From: Vulcanimicrobiaceae bacterium
GTDB lineage: Bacteria > Vulcanimicrobiota > Vulcanimicrobiia > Vulcanimicrobiales > Vulcanimicrobiaceae
Assembly: GCA_036488875.1 (NCBI GenBank)
Contig: DASXGW010000013.1
Span: 105,281 to 169,280 of the forward strand
Reading direction: 5' to 3'
DNA length: 64,000 nt
The translations under genes were made by a program, and so were the position numbers. Below, piece after piece: positions 2,357-50,451 of the stretch. The number at the start of each line of letters is the position of its first letter. The stretch's first letter is position 1. The notes beneath the pieces were generated by a model that saw only the letters and a list, made by a program, of their open reading frames with translations, made no database searches and had not been told where the DNA came from.

Positions 2357-3577
2357 TTAGATTCCGCCGACGAAGCGGCCGGGATTGAGCGTACCGTTAG
2401 GATCGAACCTAGCTTTGAGTTCGCGCATGCGTTCGATTGCCGCGGGCGGCTCGCCCCAAACGTTGAGCGATCCGCGAAATGGATGCTCTCCGGCCAGGAC
2501 GATTGCTTGCGGCTGCGCGGCGTGCAGCGCCTCGTCGAAGGTTTCGATCTTCGCTCCAAGCGAGCGCGAATCTAAGTCGCTCACGCGTACCACGACGTCG
2601 CCGTTGAGCGCGTCGACAATCGTTTCGCAGCGAAGCTCGAACCGCGCCGCCAAATCGTGCACCCCCAGCGCGCGCTCGGCCGACGCGTCCGGCGTGCAGA
2701 GAATGCGATACGTGATCGATCGCTCGCCCAGCACCGCAACGTACGCGTCGACGACTCGCTCGAACGATTCGCGGGCGCCCGCGTTGATGACGCGCGTGTC
2801 GGGAACGCCCGCGCGCCCCAGCGCGGAACGCAGATCGCGCGTCGCGCGTTCGAGCAGTGCTTCGCTGCCCTCGAGAAGCGCGAAAATCCGGCCGTCGTCG
2901 CCGTCTTCGCCGTCGACCGAGTTGTGAAAGCCGTCGATCCAAAACGCGGCGGAGGGCCGAACCGGCAGCGATTCGAGAAATCTGCAGGCGTCCGCGCGCG
3001 TGCCTTCCGGCAGCGGTGCGAGGAACGCGCGCGCGCTCGCGGGCAGCGGCAGCGTCTTGAGATTGGCTTGCACTAAAACCGCAAGCGTACCGCAGGATCC
3101 GACGTAGAGACGGCTCATGTCGTAGCCCGCGACGTTCTTGACGACCATCCCGCCCGCGCGCACCGGTGTCCCGTCGGCGAGCACGGCCGTCGTGCCGATG
3201 AGATAATCGCGCGGCCGGCCGTAAAGGTGGCGGCGCGGTCCAAGCCATCCCACCGCCAAAGTTCCGCCGACCGTTGCGTCGCGCGGACGCGGAGCGTCGA
3301 ACGGTACGAACTGACCGCGCTGCGCGAGCGCAACGTTGATGGATTGAAGGATCGTTCCGCTCTGAGTCGCGATGGTGAGATCGGCTGGTTCGTAGTCGAC
3401 GATGCGATTCAATCCGATGGTCGACAGCGTAACGTCGGCGCGCGCCGGCGGCAGTCCCATCCCGGCGAGCGTGTTGCCGCCCACGATAAGGATTTTACGC
3501 CCGCCCGCGTCGCAGCTAGCGACGAGTTCGCCGAGTTCCTCGACGCTTTTCGGCGCGGCGCGCTCCGCGACGGTCAT
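2357..3577 (-). CDS. glcE: FAD-binding oxidoreductase, glycolate oxidase subunit GlcE-like
   Basis: PCMH-type FAD-binding N-terminus ([14 protein letters not shown]) and GlcE-like length. I moved the start from 3595 to ATG 3577, which forms an ATGA overlap with the upstream stop at 3574. Confidence 0.75.
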
Positions 3578-4959
3578 CCGGCGACTTCCGGACATCGCAC
3601 TCCGCTCGGAAAAATCTTGTCGGGATTGAGCATTCGCTTGGGATCGAAAACGTCGCGAACGCGCGCCATCGCCGCCAGATCGGCCGTCGAGTAGACGCGC
3701 GTCATCGCGTCGCGTTTTTCATAGCCGACGCCGTGCTCGCCGCTGATGGTACCGCCGAGTTCTACGGCAGCCTGCAGGATCGTGTTTCCGGTTTCGATGA
3801 CCGCCGCGACCTGCGCCCGATCGGTTTTGTCGTACATGAGCAGCGGATGCAGATTCCCGTCGCCCGCGTGGAAGACGTTTCCAACCGTAATCCGGTGCTT
3901 GGCGGCGGCCGCTTCGACCTCGCGCAACGCTTCGGGAAGCTTGCTGCGCGGAACGCACACGTCTTGCGTATAGTAGTTGGGTGAGATGCGGCCGGTGGCG
4001 GCGGCCGCGCCTTTTCGTCCCGCCCAGAGGGCATCCCGTTCGGCGCTCGTGCGCGCGCTTCGCCACGAAAGCGCGCCGTGCCGATCGACGATCGCGCGAA
4101 TGGACGCTTCGCACGCGTCCATGTCGTTTTCGAAGCCGGCGTTTTCGATGAGCAATACGGCGCTCGCATCGGTCGGATAACCCGCGCCGAACGCCGCCTC
4201 GACCGCACGCACGATCACTTTGTCCATCATCTCCAGCGCGGTCGGAACGATGCCCGCGCCGACGATTGCCGAAACGGCCTCGGAAGCCGCTTCGATCGAA
4301 GGAAACGCCACCACCCAAACCCGGACCGCTTCGGGAAGCCGCATCAGACGAACCCAAGCCGACGTAACGATGCCCAGCGTCCCTTCGCTGCCCACCAGCG
4401 CGGCGGTCAGATCGTAGCCCGCGTCGTCCACGGCCGTCGTGAAAACCTCACCGCGGTCATCCACGACTTCCAATGCGAGCACGTGGTTGACCGTCGTTCC
4501 GTAGGAGAGGCAGTGCGGGCCGCCGGCGTTGGTGGCGATGTTTCCGCCGATCGTCGAGATGCGCTGCGAGGACGGATCGGGCGCGTAAAATAACTGTGTG
4601 GACGCCGCGGCTACAGAGAGATCGAGGTTGATGACGCCCGGCTGCACGCGCGCGCGCCGGTTGCGCGCATCGAGTTCGAGGATGCGATTCATACGCGCAA
4701 ACGAGATGACGACTCCGCCTTCCATGGGGACGGCACCGCCGCAGAGTCCCGTACCGGCGCCGCGCGGCACCACCGCTGCGCCGACGGCCCGCGCGACGCG
4801 CACGACGGCGCTCACGTCGCGGGTGGACGCGGGTAAGACGACGGCGGCGGGAAGATTTCCGTCGGTGTATGCGTCGAAAGCGTAGGCGGCGAGGTCTTCA
4901 GGCGCCGTTAACACGGCATCTTGGCCGACCGCCTCGGCGAGGCGCTGGTGTAGCAACAC
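3574..4959 (-). CDS. glcD: FAD-linked oxidase, glycolate oxidase subunit GlcD / D-lactate dehydrogenase-like
   Basis: [16 protein letters not shown] block and C-terminal [12 protein letters not shown] block. The ORF-track start at 5157 would run through the divergent PilZ gene. In-frame GTG 4959 preceded by GAAGG gives 461 aa. The exact start is uncertain (TTG 4956 and ATG 5061 are alternatives). Confidence 0.8.
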
Positions 4960-46159: not shown

Positions 46160-47731
46160 TTAACGCCGTTTGGCAGACTTTTTCTTTGTCGCCGACCCTT
46201 TGCTCGATGGCTTCGTGACTTTTTTGACTTGCTTCTTAACCGCTGGTTTGGCGGCAAGTTTCTTGCTTTTCGCCGCGGATTTCACCGCAGTCTTTTTGGC
46301 GAGCGCCTTTTTTACCGCGGGCTTACGTGCGGGCGGCTTGGTCGCCGGCTTGCTCTTGGCGTTCTTGGAACGCGGCGCGGGCGCCGCCGCCTTCTTAGCG
46401 GCGGGCTTGACCGGTTTTGGCGGCTTTGCCGGCTTGACGGGTTTGGCGATCTTGGCGGCGGCCGGTTTGGGAGCGGCAGTTTTCTTGGAGGGCGGCGGCG
46501 CCTTCGCGGGAGCCGCTTTTGCGGGAACGCGGGCCGCTTTGGCCTTGCTGGATTGCGTCGAGGAATCCGGCGTGCGGCGCGACGTGCTCGGTGAACGCGT
46601 TGCGTCGGCTGCCCGCTTCTTCGGCCCCGCCTCGCGGGGCGAACGCGGCCCTTCGCGCCGGCCGCCCGCGGTTTCGGCCTCTTCGGGGAGTCCGAGCTCG
46701 GCGCGGCTGTAGCCGGTGATGCTGCTGCCCGGCGTGGAGGTCTCGCGCGTCTTAGCTTGCGCTTCCAGGTGCTCGCGCGTCGCGCGCAGAGCCACGCGCG
46801 CCAGCCGGCCGCCGACCGGGAAAACGATTTCGTTGATCTTCGCCTCGTCCAAGAGTCGCAGAATCGCGTCGAAGCCGTGGCCTTGATCCTTGGGACTGTG
46901 CGCGTCGGAGCCGATCGCGATGCCGACGCCGCGATCCTTGGCCTTACGAATCAACCGGGCGTTGGCTTCGAGGAACTGTCTTTTCAGATCTTCGGAACTG
47001 TCGCGATACAAGAAACGCGTGTTGATCTCGACGGCCGTTCCGCGAGCGTGACAGATCTCCAAGAGCCGGTCTTCGTAGCCTTCGAGCGCTTTCTGCGCGG
47101 GCCAATGACCGAATACGGCCGGACCGTAGAAGTGTCCGGCAACGTTACCGGGCAGCTTCTCGAGGTCGTCGAAAAGCTTCGTGGTGTAGAGTTGCCAGAT
47201 GCGATCGGCTCCCACGACGTCGTAGAGATGCGCGAACTCGTCGTTATCGAAAGCCCACGACCAGTCGGCGCCCTTTTCGGGATGATCGATGTTGATGAAG
47301 TGTACCGAGCGAATGACGCCGTCGGGCCGCATCGCGTCGACGATGTTTTGCGCGTCGGGTCTTGCACGCGGATCGTTGTCGACCTCGGCGCCGATCGAGA
47401 ACCGCATCCCGCGGCGCAAGCCGTCCGACACGACCGACGCATGCGCGACGTCCACGCCGGCCGTTTCGGCCGCTCCGTAGAGGTCGCCGGCATGCGCGAG
47501 CTTGAGCGCGCGCCGCACGGTGTTGACCGCTCCCGGGTCTTCGAACGTCAGGTAGTTGATGTGGTCGGCCACCATCAAAAAGCGCGGCGACCCACGACGG
47601 CAGGCGTGGTAGAACCACAGAAAGAGCATGCGTGGCGTGTACGCAATCGGACGCTCCTCGGCAAACGGGCGATGCTCGCCCTTTGCGTGTCCGTGGACGT
47701 CCGGTATGGCGGCGATGCGAGGGTCGCTCAG
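46160..47731 (-). CDS. PHP-domain (HisJ-type) phosphoesterase fused to a C-terminal histone-H1-like Lys/Ala/Pro-rich tail
   Basis: PHP metal-ligand blocks IPDVHGH, VADHINY, RSVHF, VAGHFYG, VEINT and GSDAH. These are followed by a Ser/Thr/Pro/Arg linker and a 128-aa tail (46163..46546). DVHGH precedes the first ATG (47629). The only upstream in-frame start-like codon is CTG 47731, which overlaps the pcp-like stop (CTGA), so the start is uncertain. Confidence 0.75.
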   Translation of the reverse strand: MSDPRIAAIPDVHGHAKGEHRPFAEERPIAYTPRMLFLWFYHACRRGSPRFLMVADHINYLTFEDPGAVNTVRRALKLAHAGDLYGAAETAGVDVAHASVVSDGLRRGMRFSIGAEVDNDPRARPDAQNIVDAMRPDGVIRSVHFINIDHPEKGADWSWAFDNDEFAHLYDVVGADRIWQLYTTKLFDDLEKLPGNVAGHFYGPAVFGHWPAQKALEGYEDRLLEICHARGTAVEINTRFLYRDSSEDLKRQFLEANARLIRKAKDRGVGIAIGSDAHSPKDQGHGFDAILRLLDEAKINEIVFPVGGRLARVALRATREHLEAQAKTRETSTPGSSITGYSRAELGLPEEAETAGGRREGPRSPREAGPKKRAADATRSPSTSRRTPDSSTQSSKAKAARVPAKAAPAKAPPPSKKTAAPKPAAAKIAKPVKPAKPPKPVKPAAKKAAAPAPRSKNAKSKPATKPPARKPAVKKALAKKTAVKSAAKSKKLAAKPAVKKQVKKVTKPSSKGSATKKKSAKRR

Positions 47732-48444
47732 CGTTCTACTTCCTTTACTCCGCGAGGGATCCACATCTGCCGGCGTCCTTTGTCTTTCGGCGAAGGCTCC
47801 GGCGGCTCGGCGGCGCGCTGATCGACCCACGGTATCACGGTCTCGATCAGCACCTCCACCCCCTTCTTCATGAGCTCGTAGCTCATCGAGGGGTTGGATT
47901 CCGACCCTGCGGCGATTGCCTGGGCAGGGAGAAACGGAAAGTGCAGGAGCCCAGCGATGACCGGAGTCGCGGAACTTTCGGTGAGGCCGAGCAGCTCGTA
48001 GAGCATCTGGTTGCCTAGGAACGTTCCGGCCGAGTTTGAGACGTAACCGGGTACGCCATTGGCGTGCCACGCCTCGACGATGCGTTCGAACGGGAGGTTC
48101 GAAAGACGCGCGTCGGCACCGCCTCGCGCGACGACGTCGCCCTTGCGCATAACGCCGACGTTATCGGGATGCTCGAAGTCGAGAACGTTGACCGCGACGC
48201 GCTCGAGCGCCATTGCGGTGCGTCCGCCGAACTGTCCCGTCGCGATGACGATGTCGGGATCTTCCTCGAGGAGCGTCTGCTCCATGCGCTCGCGCATCGT
48301 GCGTGTTTCGGCCGGTAAGATGCGGACGGAAAGAGGGCGGCCGGAAATCAGCCGCCCCTCCAAACTACGGGCAACCAGCTCGCTGGGATTGATTTTGTCG
48401 CCACCGTACGGCTCAAAACCGGTGATAAGGACGCGTTTAGGCAC
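47728..48444 (-). CDS. Pyroglutamyl-peptidase I (Pcp, C15) homolog lacking the catalytic cysteine
   Basis: Collinear with Bacillus Pcp as I recall it (VLITGFEPYGG, ALERVAVNV, SNSAGTFLGNQMLY, LLHFPF). Glu81 and His168 equivalents are present. Position 144 is Gly (GGC at 48015..48013) where Pcp has AGTFVCNH. Confidence 0.8.
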   Translation of the reverse strand: MPKRVLITGFEPYGGDKINPSELVARSLEGRLISGRPLSVRILPAETRTMRERMEQTLLEEDPDIVIATGQFGGRTAMALERVAVNVLDFEHPDNVGVMRKGDVVARGGADARLSNLPFERIVEAWHANGVPGYVSNSAGTFLGNQMLYELLGLTESSATPVIAGLLHFPFLPAQAIAAGSESNPSMSYELMKKGVEVLIETVIPWVDQRAAEPPEPSPKDKGRRQMWIPRGVKEVER

Positions 48445-48464: not shown

Positions 48465-49196
48465 TTATCCGCGATATCCCTCCATTTTGAGAAGCCGCGC
48501 CTTCATGTCGAGTCCGTAGAAGTAGTTGTGTAAGCCGCCCGACGAGTCCACCACGCGGTGACACGGAAAGAGCAGCGGCAACGGATTGCGCGCCATCACC
48601 CGCCCGACCGCCCGCGCGGCGCGGGGCTTGCCGATTTGCGTCGCGACCCAGCCGTACGATCGCACCTCGCCCGGGGGAATCGAAGCCGCAGCGCGCAGGG
48701 CCGCTTGTTCGAACGGGGTCAGGTCGCTGATGTCGACGACCTGATCGTCGAGTTTCCACGTTGCGAAGAATCGATCGAGCGTCGGCTGCAGCCACGACGG
48801 CGCTTCGCCGACGGTGACCGGACGGCGCAGCCGGGCTTCGATGCGCGAACGGACGTTTTCCAACGGCTCGCCCGTTTCGAAGCCGATATACGCAATCCGG
48901 TTCTCTTTGAACCCGACGTACAACCGTCCGATGGGCGTCGTTACCGATGACAGAACGACCGGAGATCGGTGTCTTCCTTTGAGCGTGAGAATGTGCTCGA
49001 CCACGCGTTTGGTGAGGTCGCATGAGGGCTCGGGCTGCGGGAGGCACGACAGGCAAAACGCGACGCCTTCGTATTGTTCGTAGAGTTCTTGACACGGAGG
49101 ACACGCTCGCAAGTGGCCGCTAACGGCTTCTCTGAGCGATTTGGTGCAGTCGCCACGAATCTCGTCCCATAACGACTCGACCTCACGACAGCGCAT
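48465..49196 (-). CDS. Anti-sigma factor: ZAS zinc-finger fused to a full O6-alkylguanine-DNA alkyltransferase (MGMT/Ogt) module
   Basis: ZAS signature H28-x3-C32-x2-C35 (GHLRACPPC). Ogt N-domain-like TPIGRLYVGFKENRIAYIGF. DNA-binding domain with NPLPLLFPC212HRVV. No transmembrane segment. The start lies 14 nt inside the end of the ECF sigma gene. Confidence 0.85.
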   Translation of the reverse strand: MRCREVESLWDEIRGDCTKSLREAVSGHLRACPPCQELYEQYEGVAFCLSCLPQPEPSCDLTKRVVEHILTLKGRHRSPVVLSSVTTPIGRLYVGFKENRIAYIGFETGEPLENVRSRIEARLRRPVTVGEAPSWLQPTLDRFFATWKLDDQVVDISDLTPFEQAALRAAASIPPGEVRSYGWVATQIGKPRAARAVGRVMARNPLPLLFPCHRVVDSSGGLHNYFYGLDMKARLLKMEGYRG

Positions 49197-49845
49197 GCAC
49201 GGAATCTCCTTCAGGGGTGAGTCGTCCGATCTGCGGACCCAAAATGCGTCGCAGAATTCGCACGGCGCGATGGACGTGAGACTTCACGGTGCCGATCGGC
49301 TGATGCAGAATCTCCGCAATTTCCGGGTGAGAGCGGCCTTCGATGAAACGTAACGTCGCGGCCGCGCGAAGATGGACGGGGAGCTGTAACAAAGCGCGCT
49401 CGACCAAAGCCACGTCGGCGTTCTGCTCGACGATGGTCTCCGGCTGCGGCGGTCCCTCGTTCGACTCGCGCAAGAGCGCGTCGGGATCGGCCAGTGCGTC
49501 GAGTGCGACGTTGGAAGGCCGTTTGCTGCGGAGCCGGTTGCGCGTGACGTTGAGCGTGATCGTGTAGAGCCATGGCTGGAGGCGGAGCTCCCCGCGTTGC
49601 TCGGGCGACATTTTTCCGAGCGCGCGATAGGCCCGCACGAAGGCATCTTGGACGATCTCCTCCGCGTCCTCGCGGTTACCGGTCATGCGCAGGGCGAAAC
49701 CATACAGCCGTCGCTGATAGTCGTCGACGATCCGCTCGAAGTTCTCGATTCCGGCAGCCGGCTGCGGCTGGCCGGCCGCAACCCTTCCGGAGGGAACCGC
49801 AGATGGCACGAACACTCCCTGTCGGAGCGGTGCGAGCACACTCAT
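49183..49845 (-). CDS. ECF-type RNA polymerase sigma-70 factor
   Basis: Region 2 (YGFALRMTGNREDAEEIVQDAFVRAY, PWLYTITLN) and region 4 (SHPEIAEILHQPIGTVKSHVHRA). Start uncertain: ATG 49845 is preferred, and the ORF-track TTG 49923 is possible. Confidence 0.85.
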   Translation of the reverse strand: MSVLAPLRQGVFVPSAVPSGRVAAGQPQPAAGIENFERIVDDYQRRLYGFALRMTGNREDAEEIVQDAFVRAYRALGKMSPEQRGELRLQPWLYTITLNVTRNRLRSKRPSNVALDALADPDALLRESNEGPPQPETIVEQNADVALVERALLQLPVHLRAAATLRFIEGRSHPEIAEILHQPIGTVKSHVHRAVRILRRILGPQIGRLTPEGDSVHALS

Positions 49846-50000
49846 TACGTGACTGGAGACCACCGCTGCCGCCTGGAAGGTTTCATACCCCCCGCAGGCC
49901 GCCTCCTTGCCTGTGGATAGCAAAAGGGGATTTTTTCGGGGCCTCCTAATGCCTCACCATGGCCCTCCTATTCCGGGCGATCCGGATCGACGTGAGAAAC

Positions 50001-50040
50001 AACCGCTTAATCGCACGACGATAAAGCGGTTTTTTGTTTC
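50001..50040 (+). terminator. Rho-independent-terminator-like hairpin in the 5' leader of gene 50059..50451
   Basis: AACCGCTT (50001..50008) pairs with AAGCGGTT (50024..50031) across a 15-nt loop and is followed by TTTTTGTTT. There is no plus-strand gene upstream to terminate. The hairpin ends about 15 nt before the GGGAG RBS. Confidence 0.45.
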
Positions 50041-50058
50041 CTTCAAAAGGGAGAACGA

Positions 50059-50451
50059 ATGCATCAAGCCATCGAACCGACGGAAATCGCGCTCGACGCG
50101 TACACGATGTGCAGCTTTTTACCCAACCTCGATTCGGCGCGCGCGATACCCTTGGTATTGATCGGTTACCGCCAAGGCGAGGATCCGTGGTTCGTTTGGC
50201 TCGTTCCAAAAGACGGAATCGATTCGACTGGTTTGACGGATGATCCGTATTACGCAAAAGTGCTGCGCGATCCGCACTCGTATTTTACGAGAAAGCTCAG
50301 CAAATATATCGAGGAGACGGGCTGCGTGAAGCGCGGAATTGAGATGCTGGTGGACTGCCACCAGAATCATCTCGCGTTCACCCCGCTTACCGAGCTGGGA
50401 GAAACGCCGTTCCGGCACCCGCTCCAGGTTGAGCTGGTAGGGGCGTTTTAA
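50059..50451 (+). CDS. Hypothetical protein (130 aa)
   Basis: ATG preceded by AAAAGGGAGAACGA. Ordinary protein-like composition. No motif recognised. Confidence 0.65.
   Translation: MHQAIEPTEIALDAYTMCSFLPNLDSARAIPLVLIGYRQGEDPWFVWLVPKDGIDSTGLTDDPYYAKVLRDPHSYFTRKLSKYIEETGCVKRGIEMLVDCHQNHLAFTPLTELGETPFRHPLQVELVGAF

What the first reader, a model, noticed from the sequence alone, without database searches (positions are those of the whole stretch)
48465..49923. ECF sigma factor paired with a soluble anti-sigma built from a ZAS zinc finger fused to a complete, active-site-intact O6-alkylguanine-DNA alkyltransferase
Seen in sequence: the 243-aa ORF 48465..49196 starts 14 nt inside the end of an ECF sigma gene and has no hydrophobic segment. 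Residues 1-50 carry the ZAS signature H28-x3-C32-x2-C35 (GHLRACPPC) plus C3. Residues ~80-243 are a full alkyltransferase: an Ogt N-domain-like TPIGRLYVGFKENRIAYIGF and a DNA-binding domain with NPLPLLFPC212HRVV. Established knowledge: ZAS domains (RsrA, RslA, ChrR) sequester their cognate ECF sigma. MGMT/Ogt proteins are single-turnover acceptors that are irreversibly alkylated on the PCHR cysteine. E. coli Ada shows that methyl transfer onto a protein Cys can act as a transcriptional switch. Inference: suicide alkylation of C212, or DNA-lesion binding, could release the sigma factor. That would be an Ada-like adaptive response wired through a sigma/anti-sigma pair. I know of no characterised anti-sigma with this sensor module.
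Basis: partly seen in the sequence, partly recalled or inferred. Interest (0 to 1): 0.85.

Follow-up and report, generated by a model that had tools for sequence, protein, structure and literature searches.

The report
DNA-repair enzyme doubling as anti-sigma factor
In an uncultured soil bacterium (Eremiobacterota), a stress sigma factor is paired with an inhibitor that is itself a single-use DNA alkylation-repair enzyme, so using up the enzyme may switch on its own resupply. The gene pairing was already catalogued in Actinobacteria, but it was never recognised as an anti-sigma fusion and has never been tested.

Summary
On the minus strand, an ECF sigma gene (conserved start at 49845) overlaps by 14 nt a 243-aa soluble protein. 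That protein has an N-terminal class-I zinc anti-sigma domain (C3/H28/C32/C35) and a complete two-domain O6-alkylguanine alkyltransferase with every catalytic residue intact.

The fusion is not an assembly artefact. It recurs in 44 Eremiobacterota genomes, always with the sigma gene upstream and overlapping. It always sits behind a conserved, near-leaderless ECF-type promoter (TGAAACC-N15/16-GTGGTC).

Distant relatives in Acidobacteriota and other phyla carry the same ZAS–Ogt core plus an Ada methyl-phosphotriester zinc domain. They too sit directly behind an overlapping ECF sigma gene (9 of 9 loci checked).

The ECF–Ogt gene pairing is already catalogued for actinobacterial groups ECF122 and ECF203, described as "no anti-sigma factor, mechanism unknown". 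No experimental work was found.

Best reading: an autoregulated alkylation-damage module in which irreversible alkylation of the suicide enzyme frees the sigma factor. The anatomy is well supported. The trigger is inferred, and a thiol or zinc trigger in the ZAS domain remains a serious rival.

Verdict: a new variant of a known kind.

The parts
49858..49885 (-). Putative autoregulated ECF-type promoter, TGAAACC-N16-GTGGTC. It ends 12 nt before the sigma ATG and there is no Shine-Dalgarno sequence, so the mRNA is leaderless or nearly so.
   Evidence: The motif is at a fixed distance (GAAAC 36-39 nt before the ATG) in the orthologous loci. A strict pattern hits 41 of 44 loci at this position and only once elsewhere in 654 kb. 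It occurs once in the 64-kb window.
49183..49845 (-). ECF sigma factor gene (220 aa from the conserved start MSVLAPL...). The maximal ORF extends to the TTG at 49923.
   Evidence: Pfam Sigma70_r2 (E 1.8e-16) and Sigma70_r4_2 (E 4.4e-14). TIGR02937 sigma70-ECF scores 98 bits against a cutoff of 43, and no equivalog model passes its cutoff. The start is set by conservation across 43 loci.
49183..49196 (-). 14-nt overlap of the sigma stop with the anti-sigma start (ATGCGCTGTCGTGA), implying translational coupling. The same bases encode the first ZAS cysteine (C3).
   Evidence: The same overlap is seen in nearly all intact Eremiobacterota loci, and sigma lies directly upstream in 44 of 44. Overlaps of 4-14 nt occur in 9 of 9 loci from other lineages.
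48465..49196 (-). Gene for the 243-aa soluble ZAS anti-sigma / O6-alkylguanine-DNA alkyltransferase fusion.
48972..49196 (-). Class-I anti-sigma domain with a zinc motif (residues 1-75). Helices at 3-14, 19-31, 33-50 and 61-75. Predicted ligands are C3, H28, C32 and C35. Extra conserved cysteines at C17, C48 and C59.
   Evidence: The four ligands are invariant in 27 divergent sequences. The domain profile hits RsiW at 3e-8 across residues 1-73, then RslA, DdvA, ChrR and RsrA. zf-HC2 scores 25.1 bits on the isolated domain. AlphaFold pLDDT is 88-95 for residues 1-50.
48747..48959 (-). Ogt N-terminal (ribonuclease-like) domain, residues about 80-150. It starts only about 5 residues after anti-sigma helix IV.
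   Evidence: NCBIfam PRK10286 alignment covers residues 85-241. The AlphaFold model shows strands 80-106 and helices 112-146 at pLDDT above 90. Foldseek gives TM 0.77 to M. tuberculosis OGT over 166 columns.
48477..48716 (-). Ogt C-terminal DNA-binding and alkyl-acceptor domain (residues 161-240). The PCHR acceptor Cys212 codon is at 48561..48563.
   Evidence: PF01035 scores E 6e-29. Human AGT residues Y114, R128, N137, P140, C145, H146, R147, Y158 and E172 map to identical residues Y181, R195, N204, P207, C212, H213, R214, Y225 and E239. All of these except P207 (nearly invariant) are invariant in 119 sequences.
47728..48444 (-). Pyroglutamyl peptidase (Peptidase_C15) gene 20 nt downstream. 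It is possibly co-transcribed here but is not part of the conserved core.
   Evidence: Pfam E 9e-55. It is present downstream in only 18 of 44 orthologous loci.

Best explanation
This is a two-gene, self-activating alkylation-damage module. It consists of an ECF sigma factor and a cytoplasmic class-I zinc anti-sigma factor whose sensor or output domain is an active, single-turnover O6-alkylguanine-DNA alkyltransferase (Ogt).

Shown by sequence:
- The two genes are translationally coupled, which would favour matched (about 1:1) synthesis.
- They sit behind a conserved ECF-type promoter.
- The anti-sigma domain, the DNA-binding surface and the PCHR acceptor site are all intact and under strong conservation.

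Inferred:
- At rest, the N-terminal four-helix domain holds the sigma factor (helices I-III on sigma-4, helix IV on sigma-2, as in RsiW/SigW).
- When the Ogt domain repairs an O6-alkylguanine, Cys212 is irreversibly alkylated.
- As in other AGTs, this perturbs the interface between the N- and C-terminal domains and destabilises the protein. The Ogt N-domain begins about 5 residues after sigma-binding helix IV.
- The spent anti-sigma therefore lets go of sigma, is degraded, or both.
- Free sigma transcribes its own operon and replaces the consumed repair enzyme. Induction would thus be stoichiometric with the damage repaired.

In relatives that also carry the Ada zinc domain, methyl-phosphotriester repair could feed into the same switch.
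For: Anatomy:
- Domain hits.
- The N-terminal profile hits solved anti-sigma domains almost exclusively: RsiW 3e-8, RslA 4e-6, DdvA, ChrR and RsrA.
- The AlphaFold model has mean pLDDT 89.9, with four N-terminal helices followed by a two-domain OGT fold. TM to M. tuberculosis OGT is 0.77.
- All nine AGT catalytic or DNA-flipping residues are identical to human AGT. All but P207, which is nearly invariant, are invariant in 119 sequences.

Pairing:
- Sigma lies directly upstream and overlapping in 44 of 44 Eremiobacterota loci.
- The same holds in 9 of 9 loci from other lineages whose remaining neighbours are unrelated.

Autoregulation: a conserved promoter motif sits at a fixed distance from the sigma ATG and is essentially unique to that position.

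Alkylation theme:
- Relatives are ZAS + Ogt + Ada_Zn_binding. In 120 of them, 120 have HxxxCxxC, 119 have PCHR and 112 have the Ada Cys4 motif.
- Actinomycetota forms have lost the ZAS cysteines but keep Ogt, Ada_Zn and the upstream sigma. This argues that the zinc thiols are not the universal sensor.

Plausibility of the trigger: alkylated AGTs are permanently inactivated, destabilised through the N/C domain interface and degraded in vivo (PMC4605297).

Prior bioinformatic link of ECF sigma factors to Ogt and DNA-damage repair: ECF122 and ECF203.
Against: - No experiment exists for any member.
- Sigma binding was not modelled, because no multimer tool was available.
- Cys212 lies in the C-terminal domain, one domain away from the anti-sigma helices, and no allosteric path has been shown.
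- In E. coli Ada the activating methylation is on the N-terminal zinc site, not on the AGT cysteine (PMC10779285). The window protein lacks that zinc domain.
- The ZAS domain plus extra conserved cysteines (C17, C48, C59) fits a thiol sensor equally well.
- Only the operon's own promoter was found, so the wider regulon, and hence the physiological theme, is unknown.
Confidence: 0.45

Rival explanations
1. The ZAS zinc-thiolate site is the sensor, as in RsrA. Oxidants or soft electrophiles oxidise or alkylate C3/C32/C35 (and possibly C17/C48/C59), zinc is lost and sigma is released. The Ogt domain is simply the effector. It is fused to the regulator so that it is made in step with sigma, and its own alkylation state does not signal.
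For: The C/H/C/C ligands are invariant across phyla. The Eremiobacterota clade has additional conserved cysteines. RsrA is inactivated by a disulfide between its zinc ligands, and direct alkylation is considered plausible (PMC5288332). Zinc thiolates are the alkyl acceptors in Ada itself.
Against: Many ZAS domains, such as RsiW, RslA and ChrR (the best matches), are not thiol switches. Actinomycetota relatives keep the sigma-Ogt pairing without any ZAS cysteines. This rival does not explain why two different alkyl-acceptor domains (Ogt, Ada_Zn) are recruited to this anti-sigma family.
Confidence: 0.25
2. Partner switching on DNA. The Ogt domain's engagement with damaged DNA (base flipping, cooperative binding) is sterically incompatible with holding sigma. 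Recruitment to lesions would then release sigma before or independently of alkyl transfer.
For: The arginine finger, the tyrosine and the helix-turn-helix are intact. Anti-sigma helix IV is only about 5 residues from the Ogt N-domain, so steric coupling is conceivable.
Against: A pure DNA-binding sensor would not need the acceptor cysteine (ATL proteins lack it), yet PCHR is conserved in 263 of 264 sequences. No structural model of the ternary situation could be made.
Confidence: 0.12
3. There is no signal-dependent release. The fusion merely provides hard-wired negative feedback or stoichiometric co-production of Ogt with a sigma factor that is controlled elsewhere, for example through its conserved N-terminal extension or by transcription. 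Alternatively, the N-terminal domain no longer binds sigma.
For: The sigma has a conserved 35-aa N-terminal extension of unknown role. ECF122 and ECF203 were classified as lacking anti-sigma factors. zf-HC2 is marginal in the full-length scan.
Against: The full four-helix anti-sigma profile matches RsiW across residues 1-73. The zinc ligands are strictly conserved, and the overlapping gene pair is maintained across phyla while all other neighbours change.
Confidence: 0.13
4. Assembly or annotation artefact: a frameshift or missed stop has joined separate anti-sigma and ogt genes.
For: None was found. A few long-read loci (L039, L042-L044) do show local frameshifts.
Against: The same uninterrupted 242-250-aa ORF occurs in 144 clusters from independent assemblies and in 40 intact genome loci. 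The fused architecture also exists in distant phyla.
Confidence: 0.01

Closest known systems
ECF groups ECF122 and ECF203 (Casas-Pastor et al. 2021, NAR; original ECF122 from Huang et al. 2015)
   Same: An ECF sigma gene is followed at position +1 by a 6-O-methylguanine DNA methyltransferase gene. In ECF203 the context also includes Ada_Zn_binding. The authors inferred a role in DNA-damage repair and listed regulation as unknown. An Actinomycetota locus of this type (L050) has a sigma 42% identical to the window's sigma.
   Different: Both groups are reported as 100% Actinobacteria, with 'no putative anti-sigma factors'. ECF122 has a CTCAC...CGTCTAC promoter, and no conserved promoter motif is reported for ECF203. 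Here the host is Eremiobacterota, the +1 protein carries a complete ZAS anti-sigma domain, and the promoter is TGAAACC...GTGGTC. Group membership could not be tested because the ECF Hub HMMs were not available.
Soluble or cytoplasmic ZAS anti-sigma factors with solved sigma complexes: RsiW/SigW (5wuq), RslA/SigL (3hug), ChrR/SigE (2q1z), RsrA/SigR (5frf)
   Same: A four-helix class-I anti-sigma domain with C...HxxxCxxC zinc ligands, encoded directly after and co-transcribed with an autoregulated ECF sigma.
   Different: The domain attached to the anti-sigma helices is a suicide DNA-repair enzyme. The known examples carry a cupin domain (ChrR), a membrane anchor with regulated proteolysis (RsiW, RslA), or nothing (RsrA). 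The input signal is unknown.
E. coli Ada adaptive response
   Same: A protein that is both an O6-alkylguanine alkyltransferase and the regulator of its own induction. Relatives of the window protein even carry the Ada Cys4 methyl-phosphotriester domain.
   Different: Ada activates transcription directly, through an AraC-type HTH, after methylation of Cys38. Here there is no HTH or AraC domain, and in the window protein no Ada zinc domain. The output would be release of a sigma factor.
Stand-alone bacterial Ogt (M. tuberculosis OGT, 4bhb/4wx9; E. coli Ogt)
   Same: The same two-domain fold (TM 0.77, about 32% identity) and identical catalytic residues.
   Different: The window protein has an extra 75-residue anti-sigma domain, obligatory pairing with a sigma gene, and a family-specific invariant Trp183. 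The known AGT fusions listed in the 2023 family review (EndoV, histone-like, Ada) do not include any sigma or anti-sigma fusion; the review has zero mentions of 'sigma'.

Membership tests
Class-I zinc anti-sigma domain (ZAS; Pfam zf-HC2 PF13490) | HxxxCxxC motif plus an upstream Cys about 25 residues before the His | tested here: met
   C3, H28, C32 and C35 are invariant in 27 divergent sequences. The motif is present in 143 of 144 close and 118 of 120 distant relatives.
Class-I zinc anti-sigma domain (ZAS; Pfam zf-HC2 PF13490) | Score at or above the Pfam gathering threshold (22.2 bits) | tested here: met
   The full-length scan gives 19.7 bits, below the threshold. The isolated 80-aa domain gives 25.1 bits, and 21 of 27 family members hit.
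Class-I zinc anti-sigma domain (ZAS; Pfam zf-HC2 PF13490) | Four-helix anti-sigma domain homologous to those in solved sigma/anti-sigma complexes | tested here: met
   The profile hits RsiW (5wuq_C) at E 3e-8 over residues 1-73, then RslA, DdvA, ChrR and RsrA. The AlphaFold model shows helices at 3-14, 19-31, 33-50 and 61-75. Foldseek did not list anti-sigma structures, because the Ogt part dominates the hits.
Class-I zinc anti-sigma domain (ZAS; Pfam zf-HC2 PF13490) | Encoded next to and co-transcribed with its cognate ECF sigma | tested here: met
   A 14-nt overlap in the window. Sigma upstream in 44 of 44 related loci and 9 of 9 loci from other lineages.
Class-I zinc anti-sigma domain (ZAS; Pfam zf-HC2 PF13490) | Physically binds and inhibits the sigma factor; binds zinc | not testable with these tools
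   No multimer prediction was available, and biochemistry would be required.
O6-alkylguanine-DNA alkyltransferase (AGT/Ogt) | DNA_binding_1 domain with the PCHR acceptor cysteine | tested here: met
   PF01035 scores 100 bits against a cutoff of 27. TIGR00589 scores 87 bits against 46. P211-C212-H213-R214 are invariant.
O6-alkylguanine-DNA alkyltransferase (AGT/Ogt) | Catalytic network and base-flipping residues (human Y114, R128, N137, H146, Y158, E172) | tested here: met
   All are identical in the window protein and invariant in 119 sequences.
O6-alkylguanine-DNA alkyltransferase (AGT/Ogt) | N-terminal ribonuclease-like domain (PF02870) | tested here: met
   Pfam PF02870 is not reported for the window protein, although it is for the relatives P0147 and P0170. 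The NCBIfam Ogt model covers residues 85-241. The model superposes on complete OGT structures with TM 0.77-0.79.
O6-alkylguanine-DNA alkyltransferase (AGT/Ogt) | Stoichiometric alkyl transfer from DNA to the cysteine | not testable with these tools
   Requires an enzyme assay.
ECF sigma group ECF122 / ECF203 | Ogt-family gene at position +1 | tested here: met
   compared with the published description.
ECF sigma group ECF122 / ECF203 | Score above the group HMM threshold (ECF Hub) | not testable with these tools
   The group HMMs are not available. The window sigma scores 96 bits against an Actinomycetota Ogt-linked sigma, against 86 bits for the best PDB ECF. This is suggestive only.
ECF sigma group ECF122 / ECF203 | Restricted to Actinobacteria, with no anti-sigma domain in the neighbourhood. 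ECF122 promoter is CTCAC-Xn-CGTCTAC; no conserved motif is reported for ECF203. | tested here: not met
   The host is Eremiobacterota. A ZAS domain is present. The promoter is TGAAACC-N15/16-G(T/C)GGTC.
E. coli Ada | N-terminal Ada_Zn_binding domain (Cys4, Cys38 acceptor) and an AraC-type HTH | tested here: not met
   The window protein has no PF02805 or HTH hit. PF02805 is present at the C-terminus of distant relatives, which also lack an AraC HTH.

The most novel reading that the evidence does not exclude
A suicide-enzyme anti-sigma factor. Each O6-alkylguanine repaired irreversibly consumes one anti-sigma molecule and liberates one sigma factor, giving a stoichiometric, self-replenishing readout of DNA alkylation damage.

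This would be a second, sigma-based solution to the adaptive response, evolutionarily independent of the Ada/AraC design. It would be spread across Eremiobacterota, Acidobacteriota, Actinomycetota and other phyla. In many lineages the Ada methyl-phosphotriester zinc domain would be plugged into the same anti-sigma scaffold as a second alkyl sensor.
Probability: 0.4. Interest if true: 0.85.

Novelty: new variant of a known kind. Interest (0 to 1): 0.68.

Why it matters
If the trigger is confirmed, this would be the first anti-sigma factor whose sensor is a single-turnover DNA-repair enzyme. It would be a new input class for ECF signalling, in which irreversible covalent consumption replaces proteolysis, partner switching or redox sensing.

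It would also be a new architecture for the bacterial adaptive response to alkylation. It would explain two ECF groups (ECF122 and ECF203) that the field currently lists as "no anti-sigma factor, mechanism unknown".

It would extend the system to poorly known soil phyla. The module is compact (two genes plus a defined promoter), so it is directly testable in a surrogate host and potentially useful as an alkylation-damage biosensor.

Tried and rejected
- Frameshift or fusion artefact: rejected, because the ORF recurs across independent assemblies.
- Other regulon members: the promoter motif occurs nowhere else in the 64-kb window. It occurs only once outside the sigma promoters in 654 kb of related loci. 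Whole genomes could not be scanned.
- Conserved functional partners beyond the pair: the downstream pyroglutamyl peptidase is present in only 18 of 44 loci. An upstream hypothetical protein and a divergent 130-aa gene are syntenic only within Eremiobacterota and absent from other phyla's loci. They are therefore not part of the core.
- Leader-peptide idea for the hairpin upstream of the divergent gene: rejected, because the uORF is not conserved and there is no Rfam match.
- Foldseek on the full model to recover anti-sigma structures: it returned only AGT hits, since the small helical domain is masked. The profile-versus-PDB sequence search was used instead.
- First AlphaFold run with only close homologues: poor N-terminus (pLDDT about 40-59). 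This was remedied with a 119-sequence alignment.
- Huang et al. 2015 (original ECF122 description): could not be read.
- Literature searches for any characterised anti-sigma/alkyltransferase pair: nothing found.
- Sigma/anti-sigma complex prediction: not possible with the single-chain tool.
Full report
**1. The observation**

On the minus strand of the window there is a 243-aa ORF (48465..49196). Its ATG lies 14 nt inside the 3' end of an ECF sigma ORF that ends at 49183.

Domain searches give the following:
- Pfam finds DNA_binding_1, the AGT catalytic domain, at residues 161-240 (E 6e-29).
- Pfam finds zf-HC2 at residues 6-36. It scores 19.7 bits, just under the 22.2-bit cutoff in the full-length scan. 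It scores 25.1 bits when the 80-residue N-terminus is scanned alone.
- NCBIfam aligns residues 85-241 to nearly the whole E. coli-type Ogt model.
- The upstream ORF has Sigma70_r2 and Sigma70_r4_2 and passes the generic ECF model. It passes no specific equivalog.

The protein has no hydrophobic segment. Its cysteines are C3, C17, C32, C35, C48, C51, C59 and C212.

One correction is needed. Alignment of 43 orthologous loci shows that the sigma gene starts at a conserved ATG (MSALAPLL...; window 49845), giving 220 aa. It does not start at the upstream TTG.

**2. The fusion is real**

- The full-length protein has more than 140 cluster representatives of 242-250 aa, at 64-96% identity, from many independent assemblies.
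- 143 of 144 keep the ZAS motif and 144 of 144 keep PCHR.
- A scan of one genome per species found 44 loci. Nearly all are labelled Eremiobacterota, Vulcanimicrobiota or Baltobacteraceae.
- All 44 have the sigma gene directly upstream. Nearly all intact loci have the same overlap.

**3. The N-terminal domain is an anti-sigma domain**

- In alignments of close and very divergent members, the only invariant N-terminal residues are C3, H28, C32 and C35. These are the ZAS zinc ligands.
- A profile of 27 N-terminal domains was searched against all PDB sequences. It returns RsiW (E 3e-8, aligned over residues 1-73, all four helices), RslA, DdvA, ChrR, a CHAT-domain protein and RsrA. Nothing else is significant.
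- With a 119-sequence alignment, AlphaFold2 gives mean pLDDT 89.9. It shows helices at 3-14, 19-31, 33-50 and 61-75, followed after about 5 residues by the Ogt fold.

**4. The Ogt part looks fully functional**

- The model superposes on M. tuberculosis, E. coli Ada-C, human and archaeal AGT structures, with target-normalised TM of 0.72-0.79 for the best-fitting entries.
- Human AGT residues Y114, R128, N137, P140, C145, H146, R147, Y158 and E172 map to identical residues in the window protein.
- All of these except P207, which is nearly invariant, are invariant in 119 family members.
- The protein is therefore not an ATL-like degenerate sensor. Alkyl transfer is under selection.

**5. Regulation**

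A motif, GTGAAACC-N15/16-G(T/C)GGTC, lies immediately upstream of the conserved sigma ATG. Its GAAAC sits 36-39 nt before the ATG in almost every locus. A strict pattern gives these counts:
- 41 of 44 loci match at that position. The exceptions are one truncated contig, one locus with a variant -10 element and one degraded locus.
- Only one match occurs elsewhere in 654 kb.
- Exactly one match occurs in the window, at 49858..49885.

The motif resembles SigW/SigX-type ECF promoters (TGAAAC -35). This comparison rests on established knowledge rather than a tool result. It ends 12 nt before the ATG with no Shine-Dalgarno sequence, which implies a leaderless or nearly leaderless, autoregulated operon. 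No further regulon members could be identified with the sequence available.

**6. The wider family**

An exhaustive HMMER search of 1.84 billion representatives found full-length relatives at 33-41% identity.

- Pfam shows that many are triple fusions of zf-HC2 + DNA_binding_1 + Ada_Zn_binding. They carry the Cys4 methyl-phosphotriester acceptor domain of E. coli Ada at the C-terminus.
- A profile search returned 120 such proteins of 289-316 aa. Some are labelled Acidobacteriota or Thermoanaerobaculia.
- Among those 120, 120 have HxxxCxxC, 119 have PCHR and 112 have the Ada Cys4 motif.
- In nine loci outside the window's clade, an ECF sigma gene of 163-202 aa lies directly upstream and overlaps by 4-14 nt. 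These loci cover triple fusions, a ZAS-Ogt form from another lineage, a 'bacterium HR23' genome, an Actinomycetota form and the nearest outgroup. All other neighbours differ.
- The overlap ATGCNNTGTGA simultaneously encodes the sigma C-terminus and stop codon and the anti-sigma Met-x-Cys.
- Actinomycetota forms lack the ZAS cysteines. They keep a roughly 45-residue extension that aligns weakly to the helix III-IV part of the anti-sigma profile. The sigma gene is still upstream.
- The Ogt-linked sigmas from three of these lineages score 96-122 bits against the window sigma, higher than any PDB ECF (86 bits). The others are on a par.

**7. What was already known**

- Casas-Pastor et al. (2021) describe ECF122 as 100% Actinobacteria, with 'no putative AS factors' and a 6-O-methylguanine DNA methyltransferase at +1 in all subgroups. 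[quoted passage not shown]
- The same paper describes ECF203 (Actinobacteria) with Ogt at +1 plus Ada_Zn_binding and TetR.
- A 2022 review lists ECF122 under 'unknown mechanism'.
- A 2023 review of the alkyltransferase family lists the Ada, EndoV and histone-like fusions and never mentions sigma factors.
- No experimental study of any such pair was found.

The gene pairing is therefore known bioinformatically. The following appear not to have been described: the recognition that the Ogt protein itself carries a bona fide ZAS anti-sigma domain, its occurrence outside Actinobacteria, and the triple fusion with the Ada zinc domain.

**8. Mechanism**

*Shown by sequence and structure prediction.* The module consists of a translationally coupled sigma/anti-sigma pair, an intact alkyl-acceptor enzyme, and a self-promoter.

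*From established knowledge.*
- Class-I anti-sigma domains clamp sigma-2 and sigma-4.
- AGTs are irreversibly alkylated. They are then destabilised through the N/C interdomain contact and degraded (PMC4605297).
- Ada shows that protein alkylation can switch transcription.

*Inferred.* Alkylation of C212 inactivates or destabilises the anti-sigma. Sigma is freed and re-induces the operon, so spent Ogt is replaced in proportion to the damage. I put this at about 0.45.

*Rivals.*
- ZAS thiol or zinc sensing with Ogt as a passenger effector: 0.25. This fits the extra cysteines and the RsrA precedent. It is weakened by the cysteine-less actinobacterial forms.
- Release driven by DNA or lesion binering without alkyl transfer: 0.12.
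- No inducible release at all: 0.13.

**9. Verdict**

The anatomy is confirmed and robust. The physiological theme, alkylation damage, is well supported by the domain repertoire of the family. The trigger is untested.

This is a new variant of a known kind: an ECF/ZAS pair with an unprecedented sensor or effector module. It was partly anticipated by the ECF122/ECF203 catalogue entries. It is of good interest because it is compact, widespread and directly testable.

Noticed in passing
window 50059..50451 (+) and its leader at about 49958..50058: A conserved 130-aa gene (MxQAIEPTEI..DAYTMCSF) with a strong SD runs divergently from the sigma operon. It has no Pfam or NCBIfam hit and is syntenic throughout Eremiobacterota. 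Its 5' leader contains a hairpin plus T-run (about 50003..50040) whose stem varies with compensatory changes between loci. A uORF there is not conserved, and there is no Rfam match. The element may be an attenuator or a bidirectional terminator.
   Followed up: partly
window 49741..49845 (-), the first ~35 codons of the sigma gene: The sigma factor carries a conserved N-terminal extension (MSALAPLL.GV.VP...) before region 2. Synonymous third-position changes show that it is coding. Its function is unknown; it may be a regulatory pro-peptide or a degradation tag.
   Followed up: partly
window 49846..49885 (-): The promoter motif ends 12 nt before the ATG and there is no Shine-Dalgarno sequence. 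The -35 to ATG distance is fixed at 36-39 nt across the orthologous loci examined. This suggests leaderless translation in Eremiobacterota.
   Followed up: partly
window 49020..49022 (C59 codon), also C17 and C48; protein residues 48-59, 'CLSCLPQPEPSC': An extra cysteine (C59) at the N-cap of anti-sigma helix IV is invariant in the Eremiobacterota clade, and C17 and C48 are nearly invariant. A cysteine at the same place ('SC', 'CPxSC') recurs in many triple-fusion relatives. It may form a second metal or redox site.
   Followed up: no
L050 (Actinomycetota) 2417..3801; proteins P0171, P0172, P0195, P0205, P0281: Ogt + Ada_Zn proteins without ZAS cysteines keep a roughly 45-residue N-terminal extension that aligns weakly to anti-sigma profile positions 40-71 (helix III end and helix IV). 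An ECF sigma still lies directly upstream. This may be a minimal, zinc-free anti-sigma remnant, relevant to the 'no anti-sigma' groups ECF122 and ECF203.
   Followed up: partly
window 46160..48070 (-): A PHP/HisJ-like phosphatase domain protein with a very long Lys/Ala/Pro-rich C-terminal tail that resembles histone H1.
   Followed up: no
protein residue W183 (window 48648..48650): Trp183 in the 'SY.W.A' segment is invariant in 119 sigma-linked Ogt proteins. Canonical AGTs (human, M. tuberculosis) have Q or E at this position. It is a family-specific surface residue that could mark an interaction site.
   Followed up: no
L054 3879..6191 and L053 566..1330: In two unrelated lineages the sigma/ZAS-Ogt pair sits next to other DNA-repair genes: NAD-dependent DNA ligase LigA plus an exonuclease/BRCT protein in L054, and RecO in L053. 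This is anecdotal and was not tested for significance.
   Followed up: no
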